Positions 12,001 to 21,000 of a stretch of 24,680 nt of DNA are shown here, piece after piece (within the stretch, counting starts at the first letter, position 1; the number at the start of each line of letters is the position of its first letter). Position numbers: made by a program. The stretch lies in contig JAYVCD010000012.1 in NCBI GenBank assembly GCA_043750125.1, forward strand, positions 1 through 24,680. The letters run 5' to 3'. The DNA comes from Archangiaceae bacterium. Lineage in GTDB: Bacteria; Myxococcota; Myxococcia; Myxococcales; Myxococcaceae.

Positions 12001-15000
12001 GGACCTCGCGGGGGGCAGCCACGGTCGCGGCGCGCAGCTGATCAATCGCGCCGGTGGGATTTGACAGCCGCAGTTCGTTCAAAGAAGCCAGCCGAAGGTG
12101 AATCGCCGCTCGGGTGGGGCCGGTGGTTCCCTCGACCTGGTCGGCGAGGACCTCGAACAGCGCATCGACCGCGTCGACTTCGACCGCCACCTCTTCGGCC
12201 TGTTGCTGCAAAGTGGGGTCTGCCGGGCTGCCCTGCAGTGCGCGGGTCAGCGCGGCGAAGACCAGGTGGGGCTGTTGGAGTTTTCGCAGCGCCAAGGCTG
12301 CGTCGAGGCGGTGGTCCGGGGCGACGAGCAGAGCCTCGAGTTGCGCCAGCGCCTCGGCGTCTCCGGGACGCGCGGCGAGCACAGTGACGCAGTCTTGGAC
12401 TTGTGAGGAAACCAGAGGGGGTTTTTCCGAAAACGCCCCGAAGAATAGCGACCGATCTGCAGCCGCGGCCAGATCTTCGCGATCCAGGCGGTGGGCAAAG
12501 GTGACCGTCCCTCGACTGCTCTCGGGATGAGCGGGGCGAGGCTCTCGGGATGAGCGGGGCGAGGCTCTCGGGATGAGCGGTCCGGCGGAACTTTCCTTCC
12601 CGGGCGGTCAGCGAGCAAGCCGCTGCCTTGTGCGCGGGGGTTCGGCTAGGGTCCCGCGGTTTTTTGCAGTCTGGGCCGCTCAAGTCGAAGGACGCCTCCA
12701 CATGACCCGCACTCTCCTGTTTGCCCTCGCGCTGTGTTGCGCTGCGCCGTCCTTCGCCACTGAGCCGGATCTCGCTCACGCCGGCTTCACCCAGTGGCTG
12801 CAGCGCTGGAACACTGCGGAGCCCGGGCTGCCCAGGCAGCGTCTGCTCGACGAAGGAATCAAGCTGGCCCGCGCGCGCCGCGAAGTGATGTCGCGGCTGG
12901 TTCGCACCGACCCCGAGCGGGCCCTGGCCCAGCAGCTGTCCCGCGCCGCCGTGCCTGCTGAGGTCGCGGAATTCGTCGAAGAGGGCTTCGACGCGCAGGG
13001 AAAATGGGAAGTCCTCGCGATGCTCGGCAAAGATCGCCGCACCACCTACGAGCGATCGATTTCCTTCGGCGCGCGCCGCTTTCGCGCCGAGGCCTGGGGA
13101 AATCTGCAGCACGCCAAGACCGTGGCGATGCACCTGCGCGGCCTGACCCTCGACGGGTGGGCCGCGGTGCGTGACGACGCGGTACCGCGAGCCAACATTC
13201 CCGGGGGCCCGCAGGCCTCTCCGCACACCATCGGGAACAAGAAGCTCCTCTACATCCGCGTCGACTTCATGGACGCTCCCGGAGAGCCGATTTCCCTCGT
13301 GCAGGCCCAGACCGACATCGCCGCGCTGAACAACTATTACAAGGCGTCCAGCTACAACAAGACGAGCATCACGGGCACCGTCACCAACACCTTGCGCATG
13401 CCGCTGAGCAAGGCGACGTACGGCACCACCAACAACACCTCGCAGCTCCTGGCGGACGCGCGCTCGGCGGCCTACGCGGCGAACCCCGGCGCGTGGGATC
13501 TGGACGTCGTCTTCTTCTCGACCATTTCCCAGTGGAGCTGGTCGGGCCTGGGCTACGTCGGCCAGAAGGGCACCTGGCTCAACGGCTCGGCCGGGGTCGG
13601 CACGGTGGCGCATGAGGTCGGCCACAACTACGGGCTGTACCACGCGAACTTCTGGCAGGCGGGAGCCGAGACGATCATCGGCGCCGGCAGCAGCCTCGAG
13701 TACGGCAACGTGTTCGAAGTGATGGGCAGCGGCAACGGCCAACCGAACGCCTGGTACAAGTGGGACCTCGATTGGTTCGGCCCGACCGAAGTCGAAGTCG
13801 TCACCGGCTCGAACAGCTTCCGCGTCTATGACCTCGAGCAGCCCATTCTCGGCGGCGCCCACGCGCTGAAGGTTCCGATCAGCGGAGCGCGCGACTACTG
13901 GGTCCATTTCCGACCCGCGTCGGGCGGCCTCAACGCGCACGGCACCGAAATCAACTGGGGCTACCCGAACTCCGACTCGTCGGACCTGCTGGACATGACG
14001 CCGTGGACCCAGACGGCCGCAGACGCTCCGCTGGTGATTGGGAAGACGTTCAGCGACTCGACCGCGGGTATTCACATCACCCCCACCGGCCTTGCGAGCA
14101 CCACGCCTGCGAGCATCGATGTCACCGTCAATCGGGGGCTGTTCGCCGGCAACCGGTCTCCGACGGTCACGCTGGTGGCGAGCGGGACGCAGGTGAACCC
14201 CAACACCGCCGTCACGTTCACTGCGACGGCCAGCGATCTCGATGGAGATCCGCTCGCCTACTACTGGGACTTTGGCGACAGCTCGGTGTCGACCAACTCG
14301 GCGCTGCAGACGCGCACCTTCACCACGGCGAAAGAAGTGGTGGCCCGCGTCACCGCCACCGACATGAAGGGCGGCACCGGCACCGCATTCGTAGTGGTCC
14401 GGGTGGGGAACCCTTCGACCTACCGAATCAGCGGCACCGTGCGAGAGCTGGGCGTGGGCGTCGAAGGCGTGCGCGTCTTCGTCGGCAGCAAGATGACGCT
14501 GACCGACACCCAGGGCGACTACACCCTGACCGGCTTCACCTCGGGCTCGTTCACCGTCGGCGCGACCAAGCCCGGCTGGACCCTCAACAGCAGCTTCGTC
14601 AACCCGGTGATGGTGAACACTGTAAACGTCACCGGCATCGACTTCACCGGCTTGCGCGCGACGTACACCATCAGTGGCAACGTCACCTCGGTCGCTCAGC
14701 CCTCGCCGGGAGTCACCATCACCGCCGGCCAGTACTCGACCGTCACCACCGCCAGTGGCGCCTACACGTTGTCCGGAGTGCCCAATGGCGGCTACCAGTT
14801 GCTGGCCAAAGGATCGTCCGGAGAAGTCTTCAACCCCACCGGCTTCACCAACCCGATTCAAATCAACGGAGCCAATCAGTCGGCTCGCAACTTCGTCGAG
14901 AACGTCTTCCCCGTCTCGGGCCAGGTGACCGGCACCGCGGGTCCGCACGATGTGACCGACGGAATTCGAACCGTGCAGACGGCGCTGTTTGGAGGAAGTT

Positions 15001-18000: not shown

Positions 18001-21000
18001 CCGGCGGCTCGTCGAGCTGCTCGGTGTTCGGAGAGCGAGGCATCTGCGCGGCGGGAGTGCGGACCTGTACCTCGGGACGGATGACGTGCGCGGGGACGAC
18101 AGCTCCGCAGGTCGAGGTGTGCAACAACATCGACGACGACTGCGACGGAAAGATCGACGACGGCTTTTCGATCGCCACCTGCGGAGTGGGCGAATGTTTT
18201 CGAATCGCGCTCGAGTGCAACGGTGGGACTCCGGGAGTCTGCGTGCCGGGAACGCCGACCGCCGAAGTGGCGGACTTCAAAGACAACGACTGCGACGGAA
18301 TCGTCGACAACGGGTTTTTCTGCACGCCCGGCATCATTCGCAATTTGCCGGCGACGCTGTCGCGTTTCACGGACGGGGGCATCTACCCGGTGAGCCTGCC
18401 GTGTAAGGGTGGGGCACAGATTTGTCAGCCGGACAGCGGGTGGGGCCCGACGCTGCAGGAAGTGTTGCCGTCGCGTGAGATCTGCGACGACAAGGACAAC
18501 GACTGCGACGGAAAGAACGACATCGACAGCATCAACAAGATTGGCTGGCTGCGGTGTGGAGTGGGCTCGTGCATGGTGTTTCCCGCATCGTGCAAAGCGG
18601 GAGGGGTAGCGGTGACCTGCACTCCAGCCGCGCCCACGGCGGAGATCTGCAATGGCGCCGACGACAACTGCAATGGAGTGATCGACGAGAACTGCCATTG
18701 CCGGATTGACGAAGAGCGTCCTTGTTACACCGGGACCTCGGCGACGCGTGACGCGGGTGTTTGTCACGGCGGCAAGCGGACGTGTCCGATGGGCGAATAC
18801 ACGAAGTGCACGGGCGAGGTGAAGCCGTCGCCTGAGTACTGCAACAACCTGGACGACGACTGCGACGGAGTGATCGACAACACCTGCATCCCGCTGACGG
18901 ACGCGGGCTCGGGCGGTGGGTCCGGAGGCGGCGCTGGAGGCGGGACGGGGGGCGTCGGTGTCGGTGGCGGAGGCGGCTCGGGCGGTGGCTCTTCGGCCGG
19001 GGGCGGAACGGGAGGTGGAGCCGAAATGAAGAAAGGCTGTGGTTGCTCAGGGGGCCCAGATGGCGCGATCGTCTTTGCTCTGCTCGGAATGCTGAGCACC
19101 GTCGTGAGGCGGCGCCGAAGCTAAGGCGACGTGAACCCGTTCGATTCGGTGCTCCCCGTCGTCACCTTTCGCTCTGGCCGTCTGTTGAAGCCGTGGCAAG
19201 CGCCGCGGAAGGTTCCTGCGTCCCTTGGGCATTGGCAGGGAAAGGGTCTTCCTCCCGGTTGCCTTTGCGGCGTTGGCCTCGCTTTCAAGTAGACGAAGCC
19301 GAGTCAAAGCGGCTCGCCTTCGTCGTCGAGATCCCTGAGGGCGGCGTTGCATTTGACGAGGGCGCCTCTGCGTGGGGCTGACGTCTGAACCTGGATGAAT
19401 GGCGAATCGCGACCGGGGTTCAACTTCCGAGCGGAACAGTGGCCAGGGCCCGGTACTGACCGCTGACGCTGGCATAGATGGTGAGGTGGCTCACATCCCA
19501 CGAGCCGAAGTCGGTGCGTTCCAGACGCCGGGCAACGACGTTGAACATCGGATCTCCGGTCTGATGCTGCGCGCGGGCGATCGTGAGGTGGGGAATGAAT
19601 TCGAGGTGATCGCGATCGACCGCGAGCTCCTGGCTCAAATGAGAAGCCAGCGCGGCGAGCGGCTGGAGCGCGCCGCGGACGCCGAGCCAGAGCACCTTCG
19701 GAACGGTCCCCGAAAAAGTGCCGGCGCCTTTGACCTGCAGCCTCATCGGCGCATGTTCGCGCGCGACTCGGGAGGCTGTGGCGGTGATCTCCGACTGTCG
19801 CTGAGCCTCGAGCTCGCCGAAGAACACCAGGGTGAGGTGAAGCGCCTCGGTGCGAACCCACCGGGCGTCCACCGTGTCGCGCTCGCGGAGGATCGCCTCG
19901 GCGACCCGGGCGCGAACTTCCTCATTGAGGTCCAGAGCAATGAACAGGCGCACGGGGGGCAGCTACACTGAAGCGATGGCGCTCGCAAAGCTGATGTCCG
20001 CAGGCAGTCACATCGAAGCGCAGTTGGTCAAAGGGCTGCTCGAGACCGAAGGCATTCCCTGCGTGGTGAACGGAGAATCGCGCAGCACGGACATGGGAAC
20101 CGAGGCGGGCTTCGCAGAGATTTTACTGCTGGTGCCCGAAGAGCTGCTGCAGCAAAGCAAGCTGTTGCTGGAAGCGAAGGTGGTGACCGAAGGGCCGGGC
20201 AGGCCGGGAGCGATTCCAGACGGGGCGGTGTGTCCGGTGCATGAGCTGAAAGCGACAAGCCTCTGCACGCGGTGTGGCTCTTTCCTATGCGCCGGCTGCG
20301 GTCCGGCGACGGTGCCACCACTGTGCGAGGCGTGCAGCGTGAAGCTCTCAGACCAGCCCCGCCCGCTCAGCAAGACGAAGGCGATCGCGTGGATGATGCT
20401 GCTGGTCCTGCTGGGGGTGCCGCTGATCGCGGTGGCGCTGCTGCGGCTGATCTCCGGACTGCGGTAATCGACTCCCGGTCAGCCGGGCCGTAACAAGTGC
20501 AGGCCCAAGGCGACGACCAGCATCACCACGGCCGCAACATCGGCGATCACGACGCGTTGCCACCGCTGGAAACGGCGGCGATGGCTTTCTGAGGGACGTT
20601 CATGGGTCGAAGGGGAGCTTTTCGTCCGGACCGCTGACCTTCATCGAGGCGTCGGCGCATTGGAGCACGGGCTGAGGGGGGTACTTGTTCGGCAGCTTCT
20701 TGCACATCAGAAAGACCGAGCGCGCGGTCTCGACCCGGTGAAGGTGGGAACACCCATGGCAAATGCTCTCAGGAAAAGGCTGCACGCGAAATTGGGGTAT
20801 AGCAGTCGGCGATGCTTCCCGACCTCGAGCCACTGGCCGACCTGCAGCTGGTCGATCACACCGGCCGCCCGGTGCGCTTCGGCAGCGCATGGGAGACCGG
20901 GCCGGCGGTGCTGGTCTTCCTGCGCCACTACGGTTGACTGTTGTGCCGAGAGCACGCGGCGGAGTTCCGCCCGCATGAAGAATCACTGAAGCGCGAAGGC

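What a model noticed while it worked through the whole genome (the two positions that open the first line are those of the whole stretch)
12573..19124. Tandem surface-protein precursors: internal MYXO-CTERM followed directly by a new signal peptide
Four ORFs carry a MYXO-CTERM sorting signal in mid-protein, followed within 1-25 residues by a lipoprotein-type or ordinary signal peptide and a second secreted protein. They are C12:12573-19124, C182:14397-16292, C415:55616-56611 and C457:12632-16021. The C12 ORF has two MYXO-CTERM signals. I read them as two complete precursors fused into one ORF whose membrane topology fits, so that myxosortase and a signal peptidase could release two products.
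Evidence so far: - C12 internal segment: TIGR03382 17.5 bits (cut-off 15.85). Orthologous segments score 23.6-28.7 bits on TIGR03901. The terminal signal is shown in call 119. - The C12 junction is open without stops in G001, G003, G004, G005, G012 and G014. The second part stands alone with its own lipoprotein signal after stop codons in G016 and G011. - The C182 junction is conserved in G002, G004, G008 and G010. - The C415 junction is conserved in 8 of 20 relatives, with a TAG in the aligned stretch in G020 and G022 and the first part only in G021. - Pattern scans gave 16 terminal tails, 1 internal with a lipobox, and 5 further internal hits of which 2 were dropped.
(Added by a program. Inside this text positions count along the whole contig: contig position 1 is position 1 of the stretch shown here. 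"Call 12" and the like, gene names such as g00115 and contig names such as C1 are that model's own, and its searches are not shown. The text may have been shortened before it was handed on; [...] marks where a part breaks off. The agent that wrote the report below was given it as the finding of a first reader that could run no searches.)

Follow-up and report, generated by a model that had tools for sequence, protein, structure and literature searches.

The report
Fused surface-protein precursors joined by hairpin
One long myxobacterial gene encodes two complete secreted-protein precursors, joined by a membrane hairpin made of the first protein's C-terminal sorting tag and the second protein's signal peptide; many related genomes keep this layout, so it looks like a natural two-in-one precursor.

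Summary
Window 12573-19124 (+) is one open frame. Its true start is probably ATG 12702. It encodes a metalloprotease ending in a MYXO-CTERM tag, then a 19-residue loop, then a lipoprotein signal peptide. After that come a CAP-fold, MopE-repeat protein and a second, terminal MYXO-CTERM.

The same in-frame junction occurs in 22 genomes of 7 genera. Ten genomes of 5 genera have the second half as a separate gene with an ordinary N-terminal lipoprotein signal. One of them (G056) has the first half ending in tag plus stop.

Junction length takes 12 values, all in frame. Both cysteines are always kept. The loop is always net positive. In 8 of 21 junctions no start codon could make the second half separately.

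The C200 type is conserved across six families of the order.

Myxosortase, LspA and Lgt are encoded in this genome. Cleavage itself is inferred, not shown.

Print already notes one internal MYXO-CTERM (MXAN_5598) and one processed central archaeal tag (HVO_0405). I therefore call this a new variant of a known kind.

In this genome the loop is a copy of a dispersed repeat.

The parts
12573..19124 (+).
12505..12580 (+). Copy of a dispersed repeat (head plus three 21-nt units) in the upstream intergenic region. The ATG at 12573 lies inside its last unit, so it is probably not the start.
12702..12758 (+). Likely true start (M44) and N-terminal Sec signal peptide of part 1, with the cleavage site judged by eye after SFA
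   Evidence: the public gene call of 2140 residues
13302..13805 (+). Zinc metalloprotease domain with HExxHxxGxxH at 13611-13643
   Evidence: PF05548 35.2 bits, cut-off 21; TIGR03296 41.2 bits, below its cut-off of 110.8
14151..16580 (+). Run of beta-sandwich modules of part 1: PKD, CarboxypepD_reg-like, K319L-like PKD, Ig-like. The outer boundaries are approximate.
16581..16676 (+). Internal MYXO-CTERM tag: GCGC motif (Cys codons within 16587-16595), uncharged helix, RR..R cluster
   Evidence: orthologous to a true C-terminal tag in G056
16677..16733 (+). Predicted cytoplasmic loop of the hairpin (19 residues, net positive). It is made of a dispersed repeat copy (head plus two 24-nt units, 16674-16732) that the same-genus genomes lack.
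16734..16769 (+). Hydrophobic core and lipobox (LSGC; Cys at 16767-16769) of the internal lipoprotein-type signal peptide of part 2
   Evidence: orthologous to N-terminal lipoprotein signals in 10 split genomes
16854..17405 (+). CAP/SCP/PR-1-fold domain of part 2
   Evidence: AlphaFold2 model (pLDDT 75.9); VIA-align 4ifa_A Z 15.3, rmsd 2.5, 126 aligned; 4d53_B Z 13.5
17415..17723 (+). Ig/FN3-like beta sandwich of part 2
   Evidence: 6fhn_A Z 10.6; 2yn3_A Z 10.5
17800..18990 (+). Cys-rich MopE-type putative metal-binding repeats (approximate span), followed by a Gly-rich spacer
   Evidence: PF11617 70.5 bits, 5 stretches
19032..19121 (+). Terminal MYXO-CTERM tag of part 2
   Evidence: TIGR03901 21.3-27.6 bits, cut-off 20

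Best explanation
The gene encodes a natural two-product precursor.

Proposed steps:
1. The N-terminal Sec signal peptide exports part 1, a zinc metalloprotease with a stalk of beta-sandwich modules.
2. The MYXO-CTERM helix of part 1 stops transfer in the inner membrane, with its arginine cluster in the cytoplasm.
3. The next hydrophobic segment is the lipoprotein signal peptide of part 2. It re-inserts N-in/C-out and restarts export of part 2 (CAP-fold domain, beta sandwich, MopE-type repeats, its own MYXO-CTERM).
4. The two helices and a short positive loop form a hairpin. Both of its ends lie at the periplasmic face and both carry a processing cysteine.
5. Lgt and LspA cut before the lipobox Cys and free part 2 as a lipoprotein.
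6. Lipidation and myxosortase cut after the tag Cys and free part 1 for surface display.
7. A two-helix remnant of about 40-85 residues stays in the membrane.

In most relatives the arginine cluster of the tag also serves as the positive n-region of the signal peptide.

What is shown: the anatomy, its conservation, its origin from two separate genes, the dependence of part 2 on the fused frame in many genomes, and the presence of the enzymes.

What is inferred: the topology, the re-initiation of export and both cleavages.
For: Distribution of fused and split forms:
- In a search of 151 family genomes, 34 have an orthologue of part 2.
- I read the junction in 32 of them. It is fused in 22 (7 genera) and split in 10 (5 genera). 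It is not readable in G002 and G054.
- G012, which is fused, is a single-contig genome.

Frame and motifs at the 21 measured fused junctions:
- The Cys-to-Cys length takes 12 different values between 39 and 85 residues, all in frame and without stops.
- The tag Cys and the lipobox Cys with a G/A/S before it are present in 21 of 21, and in G022 by eye.
- The loop has net charge +3 to +8 in 21 of 21.
- From the last charged residue to the lipobox Cys there are 11-21 residues, against 9-15 in the 10 split signal peptides.
- The internal tag passes a curated MYXO-CTERM cut-off in 20 of 21: TIGR03382 in 19, TIGR03901 in 10, and G012 in neither.

Start codons:
- 4 of 21 have no in-frame ATG/GTG/TTG between the arginine cluster and the lipobox Cys.
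- 4 more have one only 8 or fewer codons before the Cys.

Split orthologues:
- They start with M, basic residues, a hydrophobic core and a lipobox.
- In G056 part 1 ends with tag plus stop.
- Parts 1 and 2 stay neighbours in G056, G075 and G016.

The same design recurs in other families:
- C200 type: 17 of 17 loci read, from six families.
- C415 type: 12 of 14 loci.
- C182 type: 5 of 6 relatives.
- No start codon before the signal core in 9 of 17, 3 of 12 and 4 of 6 respectively.

Enzymes in G000:
- Myxosortase core NF040914, 139.1 bits (cut-off 100).
- Two LspA, 100.4 and 80 bits (cut-off 73.95).
- Lgt, 136.2 bits (cut-off 118.9).

Print:
- MrtX cleaves MYXO-CTERM in a Cys-dependent way, and also in E. 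coli (PMC11980579, abstract and passages).
- A central archaeal tripartite tag is cleaved by ArtA in HVO_0405 (PMC7157517, passages).
Against: - No protein-level or RNA-level data exist for any of these genes. Neither cleavage has been shown for an internal MYXO-CTERM or for an internal lipobox.
- In G000 the internal tag is below the TIGR03901 cut-off (18.7-19.4 against 20). In G012 it passes no cut-off.
- No signal-peptide predictor was available. Signals were judged by orthology and simple measures.
- In G000 the loop is a copy of a high-copy dispersed repeat, and public contigs break there. The exact number of units in this metagenome-assembled genome is therefore unsure. Units of 24 nt keep the frame whatever their number.
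- That repeat also supplies an ATG that would give a canonical separate signal peptide in G000.
- The part-2 tree needs at least 3 changes between fused and split, so the fused state is gained or lost fairly easily.
Confidence: 0.6

Rival explanations
1. The fused protein is made and inserted as a hairpin, but one or both cuts do not happen. The hairpin then serves as a permanent inner-membrane anchor that holds the protease and the CAP/MopE protein together in the periplasm.
For: The topology argument is the same as for the best explanation. No data show that LspA or myxosortase accept internal signals. The internal tag is weak in G000 and in G012.
Against: A plain two-helix anchor would not need the tag Cys, nor a lipobox Cys with a small residue before it. 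Both are kept in 21 of 21 junctions while the loop varies freely. Part 2 also keeps its own terminal MYXO-CTERM, which makes sense only for a protein that leaves the inner membrane. Central tags are processed in Haloferax (PMC7157517).
Confidence: 0.2
2. The fusion is a tolerated accident. A stop codon was lost between two adjacent genes for secreted proteins. Part 2 is mainly translated from its own internal start, and the read-through product is a harmless by-product.
For: By a heuristic, 9 of 30 terminal tags in G000 are followed within about 250 nt by a same-strand start with a signal peptide, and 3 of these are in the same frame. One more was seen by eye. Fusions are thus one mutation away. 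In G000 the repeat copy offers an ATG that gives a canonical lipoprotein signal. The tree shows repeated change between the two states.
Against: 8 of 21 junctions have no usable in-frame start, and several loops are only 4-8 residues, so the signal peptide borrows the tag's arginines. The same holds in 9 of 17 C200-type and 4 of 6 C182-type junctions. All 11 genomes of genus g11, all 3 of g51 and 4 of 4 readable genomes of g1 keep the frame despite many length changes. The C200 type is kept in six families.
Confidence: 0.12
3. The open frame in this window is an assembly artefact or a decaying gene. The contig could be mis-joined at the dispersed repeat in the junction.
For: The junction of G000 lies on a repeat with 50 hits in the genome. 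In metagenome contigs its summed depth is 1100-7000, against about 9 in the flanks. Public contigs end there.
Against: The same order of part 1 then part 2, in one frame, is found without the repeat in 21 other genomes, including a single-contig genome. Public gene calls give 17 further full-length proteins of 1726-2162 residues.
Confidence: 0.03

Closest known systems
MXAN_5598 of Myxococcus xanthus (internal MYXO-CTERM; discussion of PMC11980579, mBio 2025; passages seen, only the legend of Table S1 seen)
   Same: It has an internal MYXO-CTERM ascribed to fusion of two genes. The authors propose that the N-terminal part is processed and anchored on the cell surface. Its C-terminal part is also an envelope protein (beta barrel plus OmpA domain).
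   Different: It is described as a rare, atypical single case. In the passages I saw there is no mention of a signal peptide after the tag, of conservation, of split orthologues, or of how the second half is exported. Here the tag is followed directly by a type I or type II signal peptide, the design recurs in at least four families in one genome, and it is kept across genera and families. I could not see the sequence of MXAN_5598 or the body of Table S1.
HVO_0405 of Haloferax volcanii (central PGF tripartite tag cut by archaeosortase ArtA; passages of PMC7157517; the original J Bacteriol 2017 paper is not held)
   Same: A fusion of two formerly separate genes leaves a tripartite sorting tag in the middle of the protein. 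The sorting enzyme still cleaves it, which was shown by experiment.
   Different: It is archaeal, with a different tag and enzyme, and is a Tat substrate. It is called strain-specific, so it is not conserved. I saw nothing about a second signal peptide or export of the C-terminal half.
TraA/TraB of Myxococcus xanthus (overlapping ORFs; mentioned in PMC11980579)
   Same: A MYXO-CTERM surface protein is encoded directly upstream of a secreted partner. That is the pre-fusion arrangement also seen after 9 of 30 terminal tags in this genome.
   Different: They are two separate ORFs with separate translation, and there is no hairpin.
FbcH cytochrome b/c1 precursor of Bradyrhizobium japonicum (recalled from memory; my search did not retrieve the papers)
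   Same: As recalled, it is a bacterial polyprotein in which an internal signal peptide after a membrane segment is cut by signal peptidase to give two proteins.
   Different: As recalled, it has a type I signal only, no sorting tag, the first product stays a membrane protein, and it is a single family.
Polyproteins of eukaryotes and their viruses with internal signal peptides, such as IGSF1 (PMC5841168, search listing only)
   Same: A transmembrane segment is followed by an internal signal peptide, and the precursor is cut into an N-terminal and a C-terminal product.
   Different: These use the ER machinery. There is no lipid-linked processing at either cysteine, and they are unrelated in sequence.

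Membership tests
MYXO-CTERM sorting domain (TIGR03901 / TIGR03382) | Signature motif with the invariant Cys, then a transmembrane helix, then an Arg-rich cluster | tested here: met
   Both the internal and the terminal segments show all three parts. The definition is taken from the abstract of PMC11980579.
MYXO-CTERM sorting domain (TIGR03901 / TIGR03382) | Score above the curated cut-off | tested here: met
   Terminal tag: TIGR03901 21.3-27.6 bits (cut-off 20). Internal tag of G000: TIGR03382 17.8-18.8 bits (cut-off 15.85) but TIGR03901 18.7-19.4 bits, below 20. Internal tags of orthologues pass a cut-off in 20 of 21.
MYXO-CTERM sorting domain (TIGR03901 / TIGR03382) | Located at the extreme C-terminus of the protein | tested here: not met
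   The internal tag is followed by 815 more residues. The terminal tag meets this feature. The orthologous tag of G056 is C-terminal.
MYXO-CTERM sorting domain (TIGR03901 / TIGR03382) | Cognate myxosortase encoded in the same genome | tested here: met
   NF040914 scores 139.1 bits (cut-off 100) at G000:C206.
MYXO-CTERM sorting domain (TIGR03901 / TIGR03382) | Cleavage by myxosortase and display on the cell surface | not testable with these tools
   This needs an experiment.
Bacterial lipoprotein signal peptide (signal peptidase II substrate) | Lipobox with a small residue before an invariant Cys, after a short hydrophobic core and a positive n-region (definition recalled) | tested here: met
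   LSGC in G000. A Cys preceded by G/A/S occurs in 21 of 21 fused junctions. The core is 11-21 residues. The loop is net positive in 21 of 21.
Bacterial lipoprotein signal peptide (signal peptidase II substrate) | Located at the N-terminus of the precursor | tested here: not met
   It is internal in the 22 fused genomes and N-terminal in the 10 split orthologues.
Bacterial lipoprotein signal peptide (signal peptidase II substrate) | Lgt and LspA present in the genome | tested here: met
Zinc metalloprotease (Pfam Peptidase_M11 / NCBIfam M6 domain) | HExxH-type zinc site and a family score above the cut-off | tested here: inconclusive
   HEVGHNYGLYH is present and invariant in 18 sequences. PF05548 scores 35.2 bits (cut-off 21), but TIGR03296 scores 41.2 bits, below its cut-off of 110.8.
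CAP / SCP / PR-1 superfamily | Alpha-beta-alpha sandwich fold of the CAP domain | tested here: met
   Model residues 32-215 against 4ifa_A (Z 15.3, rmsd 2.5, 126 aligned), 4d53_B (Z 13.5) and 4h0a_B (Z 11.4).
CAP / SCP / PR-1 superfamily | Sequence match to the Pfam CAP family or to a solved CAP protein | tested here: not met
   No Pfam family at E<=10. No PDB sequence at E<=1.
MopE-type putative metal-binding repeats (PF11617) | Score above the gathering cut-off | tested here: met
   70.5 bits (cut-off 27), 5 stretches.

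The most novel reading that the evidence does not exclude
The pair 'sorting tag plus signal peptide' is a selected, self-excising linker. It is a two-helix hairpin whose arginine cluster acts both as the stop-transfer anchor of the tag and as the n-region of the next signal peptide. 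Two different membrane proteases (myxosortase, and LspA or signal peptidase I) remove it at its two periplasmic ends. With it, Myxococcota would make functionally linked surface proteins from one precursor, in fixed 1:1 amounts and at one place in the envelope. That would be a bacterial counterpart of polyproteins with internal signal peptides, used repeatedly and kept for long evolutionary times.
Probability: 0.45. Interest if true: 0.7.

Novelty: new variant of a known kind. Interest (0 to 1): 0.55.

Why it matters
C-terminal sorting tags and N-terminal signal peptides are treated as terminal signals. Here they are joined back to back inside one protein, and the join has been kept in frame in many genomes.

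If both cuts occur, four things follow:
- Myxosortase and the Lgt/LspA pathway would be shown to accept internal substrates.
- Gene callers and annotators would be missing a class of two-product genes. Public names for these proteins describe single domains only.
- The junction would give a compact natural test substrate for the open question of how the MYXO-CTERM cysteine is lipidated. Both cysteines sit at the same face of one small hairpin.
- Each fusion would point to a functional pair, here a surface metalloprotease with a CAP-fold, MopE-repeat lipoprotein. The two are also neighbours where they are separate.

Tried and rejected
- Complex prediction of the protease domain (alignment A2) with the CAP-plus-sandwich part (A1, residues 28-325). 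No job ran, so there is no result on binding.
- Sequencing runs: no RNA holder is listed. The laid public contigs cover 16300-16732 but give no cover for 16733-16826. They neither confirm nor contradict the right side of the junction in this organism.
- Foldseek against the PDB found only the beta sandwich of part 2. The CAP fold appeared only with the wide VIA-align search.
- Pfam gave nothing for the part-2 N-terminal region, for the C415 second part or for the C182 first part. It gave only a weak DUF3575 hint (E 0.06) for the C182 second part.
- A PDB sequence search gave nothing.
- Rfam at gathering scores gave nothing in the window.
- RNA folding of the repeat copies is not better than shuffles (z -1.7, +0.67, -1.2).
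- My regular-expression scan for tags in all six frames gave 40 'internal-like' hits. Most are ordinary membrane proteins or shadow frames, and it missed the C200 case. I use it only as a rough count.
- Literature searches for a bacterial internal lipoprotein signal peptide or a comparable polyprotein gave nothing relevant. This is not proof that none is in print.
- J Bacteriol 2017 on HVO_0405 is not held. Of Table S1 of PMC11980579 only the legend is held, so I could not see how many internal tags that table lists.
- The tree did not settle whether fused or split is ancestral. The base is a polytomy and at least 3 changes are needed.
- C457 has no orthologous junction in 40 relatives.

Full report
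WHAT IS THERE

Window 12573-19124 (+) is one open frame of 2183 codons. The ATG at 12573 lies inside the last unit of a dispersed repeat copy at 12505-12580. The likely start is ATG 12702 (M44). It is followed by an ordinary Sec signal peptide and matches the 2140-residue product found in the public protein collection.

Part 1 consists of:
- a zinc metalloprotease domain, with HExxHxxGxxH at 13611-13643 (PF05548 35.2 bits; TIGR03296 below its cut-off);
- PKD, CarboxypepD_reg-like and K319L-like modules;
- a MYXO-CTERM tag at 16581-16676.

Then come a 19-residue loop (16677-16733) and an uncharged stretch ending in the lipobox LSGC (Cys at 16767-16769).

Part 2 consists of:
- a domain with no Pfam or PDB sequence match, which an AlphaFold2 model (pLDDT 75.9, pTM 0.75) places in the CAP/SCP/PR-1 fold (4ifa_A Z 15.3, rmsd 2.5, 126 aligned; 4d53_B Z 13.5);
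- an Ig/FN3-like sandwich (Z about 10.5);
- MopE-type Cys-rich repeats (PF11617 70.5 bits);
- a terminal MYXO-CTERM tag (TIGR03901 21.3-27.6 bits).

IS THE JUNCTION REAL AND CONSERVED?

A 200-residue query across the junction matched, over its full length and without stops, open frames of about 2100 residues in G001, G003, G004, G005, G012 and G014. It matched in parts in G022 and G024 (41 genomes searched).

A search of 151 genomes of the family with the first 300 residues of mature part 2 found orthologues in 34. The junction could be read in 32:
- Fused in 22: G000, G001, G003, G004 (genus g1); G005 (g2); G012 (g9); eleven genomes of g11; G022 (g19); G024 (g21); G055, G083 and G099 (g51).
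- Split in 10: four genomes of g13, three of g8, and G056, G057 and G069.
- G002 and G054 are cut by contig ends.

G012 is a single-contig genome, so the fusion is not a by-product of binning. The public protein collection holds 17 further full-length proteins of 1726-2162 residues. They are named only by single domains, such as 'MopE-related' or 'PKD domain-containing'.

EVIDENCE THAT THESE ARE TWO PRECURSORS JOINED

In the 10 split genomes part 2 starts with M, one or two basic residues, a hydrophobic core and a lipobox Cys. That is a canonical lipoprotein signal peptide, preceded by stop codons.

In G056 part 1 ends with its tag and a stop. A small HEAT-repeat gene with its own signal peptide follows, and then part 2. 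In G075 and G016 a part-1 orthologue lies a few kilobases from part 2 on the same contig. G011 and G069 have part 2 but no part-1 orthologue was found with this query.

Paralogous proteases in G008 and G014 end in ordinary terminal tags. The internal tag and the internal signal peptide are therefore orthologous to true terminal signals.

EVIDENCE THAT THE FUSED FRAME IS UNDER SELECTION

These figures are for the 21 measured junctions.
- The distance from tag Cys to lipobox Cys takes 12 different values (39-85 residues), always in frame and without stops.
- All 11 genomes of g11, all 3 of g51 and all 4 readable genomes of g1 are fused.
- The tag Cys and the lipobox Cys, with G, A or S before it, are present in 21 of 21, while the loop sequence is free.
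- The loop is 4-46 residues long, with net charge +3 to +8 in 21 of 21.
- From the last charge to the lipobox Cys there are 11-21 residues (median 15), against 9-15 (median 11) in the split signal peptides.
- The internal tags pass a curated MYXO-CTERM cut-off in 20 of 21.
- Four junctions have no in-frame ATG, GTG or TTG between the arginine cluster and the lipobox Cys. Four more have one only 8 or fewer codons before it. In these genomes part 2 cannot be made with a working signal peptide unless it is read as part of the fusion.
- In G001 and G024 the loop is 6 and 4 residues by the measure, so the tag's basic cluster is the only positive n-region available.

THE SAME DESIGN ELSEWHERE IN THE GENOME

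An HMM scan of G000 gave 37 MYXO-CTERM hits at E<=1. Reading their contexts and the named ORFs confirms four further cases.

- C182: an unassigned enzyme-like part, then the tag, then a type I signal, then about 170 residues with a faint DUF3575 hint.
- C415: a matrixin, then the tag, then a signal, then a domain of about 70 residues.
- C457: an Rv2525c-like hydrolase with FG-GAP and HYR repeats, then the tag, then a lipobox signal.

Conservation of these junctions:
- C200 type: all 11 family loci read, plus 6 of 6 loci from five other families. The tag Cys and the residues around the predicted cleavage site are invariant in alignment A3.
- C200 type in the species collection: 7 MAG records are fused, one ends at tag plus stop, and one distant hit was not read.
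- C415 type: fused in 12 of 14 loci, and ending at the tag in G016 and G028.
- C182 type: fused in G002, G004, G008, G010 and G024, with a stop after the tag in G009.
- C457: no orthologous junction in 40 relatives. Its N-terminal lipoprotein signal lies in another frame, and a second frameshift leads into a second HYR-plus-tag unit. It is best seen as two tandem paralogous units in a poorly assembled or decaying locus.

A start codon before the signal core is missing in 9 of 17 (C200 type), 3 of 12 (C415 type) and 4 of 6 (C182 type) junctions.

WHERE FUSIONS COME FROM

By a simple heuristic, 9 of 30 terminal tags in G000 are followed within about 250 nt by a same-strand start with a signal peptide. 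Several of these are only 5-11 nt after the tag, and 3 are in the same frame. One more was seen by eye. Loss of one stop codon would therefore create such a hairpin.

The part-2 tree needs at least 3 changes between fused and split. The split genus g13 is nested among fused lineages, and the base of the tree is unresolved.

MECHANISM

Published and shown (M. xanthus TraA): MYXO-CTERM proteins are exported by Sec and held in the inner membrane by the tag helix. Myxosortase MrtX cleaves them in a Cys-dependent way, also in E. coli. [quoted passage not shown]

G000 encodes a myxosortase core, two LspA and an Lgt.

Inferred for this gene:
1. The tag helix stops transfer.
2. The positive loop stays in the cytoplasm.
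3. The signal peptide re-inserts and restarts export of part 2.
4. Lgt and LspA cut before the lipobox Cys.
5. Myxosortase cuts after the tag Cys.
6. A two-helix remnant is left in the membrane.

That internal hydrophobic segments can export large downstream domains is textbook knowledge for polytopic proteins such as E. coli leader peptidase (recalled, not checked here).

COMPARISON WITH PRINT

PMC11980579 states that internal MYXO-CTERM motifs occur in rare cases. For MXAN_5598 it proposes a gene fusion whose N-terminal part is processed. For internally placed tags it cites Gram-positive sortase work and HVO_0405. Passages of PMC7157517 confirm that HVO_0405 is a strain-specific fusion with a central ArtA cleavage site.

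In the passages I saw, the following are not mentioned:
- a signal peptide directly after the tag;
- the double use of the arginine cluster;
- recurrence in several families;
- conservation over genera and families;
- split orthologues;
- dependence of the second half on the fused frame.

My searches for a bacterial internal lipoprotein signal found nothing relevant. The body of Table S1 and the 2017 paper were not available to me.

A COMPLICATION SPECIFIC TO THIS GENOME

The loop of G000 (16674-16732) is a copy of a dispersed repeat. The repeat has a conserved head plus tandem units of 21-24 nt. There are 50 hits of its 20-nt core, allowing up to 2 mismatches, across the genome. Here it has two exact 24-nt units. 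The same-genus genomes G001, G003 and G004 lack it.

In four metagenome runs the summed contig depth at the element is 1100-7000, against about 9 in the flanks, and public contigs end there. The number of units in the assembly is therefore unsure, though 24-nt units keep the frame. Each unit carries an ATG, so G000, unlike several relatives, also has a possible separate start for part 2.

VERDICT

The cleavages remain to be shown. I rate it a new variant of a known kind, of moderate to good interest.

Noticed in passing
window 12505-12580 (+), 16674-16732 (+), 9356-9400 (-); about 35 other contigs of G000: A dispersed repeat family with a conserved head followed by 1-5 tandem units of 21-24 nt. 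There are 50 hits of its 20-nt core (up to 2 mismatches) in the genome. In four sediment or freshwater metagenome runs its depth is hundreds of times that of the flanks. It has no Rfam match and no unusual fold. One copy forms the loop of the junction, and one supplies the spurious ATG at 12573.
   Followed up: partly
window 449-12382 (-): A 3977-codon open frame with TPR repeats. A copy of the dispersed repeat lies inside it at about 9356-9400. I did not check whether it is one gene or two.
   Followed up: no
G000:C457:11700-16291 (-): The C457 locus looks like two tandem paralogous units (unknown or hydrolase domain, FG-GAP, three HYR, tag) joined by a tag-plus-lipobox hairpin. It has two frameshifts. 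One separates an N-terminal lipoprotein signal from the body, and one lies before the second set of HYR domains.
   Followed up: partly
G000: C331:401, C408:14113, C6:9395, C382:6528, C356:1959, C67:15708, C200:3863 and others: About a third of genes with a terminal MYXO-CTERM are followed at once by a same-strand gene with a signal peptide. In some the start lies only 5-11 nt after the tag. This operon-like pairing recalls TraA/TraB.
   Followed up: partly
L046 (G056:C124), between part 1 and part 2: Where the two genes are separate in G056, a small secreted HEAT-repeat protein is encoded between them. It is absent from the fused forms.
   Followed up: no
window 19850-24634: Downstream context: a DUF2007/B-box protein (19850-20467), a LysM-VanY peptidase (21371-22012, -), a FecCD-type permease (22011-23213) and a DDE_3 transposase (23534-24634, -).
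   Followed up: no
G000:C235:6552-6644, C165:8686-8772, C19:37126-37209, C31:32434-32520: Some otherwise typical tags are followed by 19-57 further residues before the stop, with no signal peptide. These are cytoplasmic tails of unknown meaning, or late stops.
   Followed up: no
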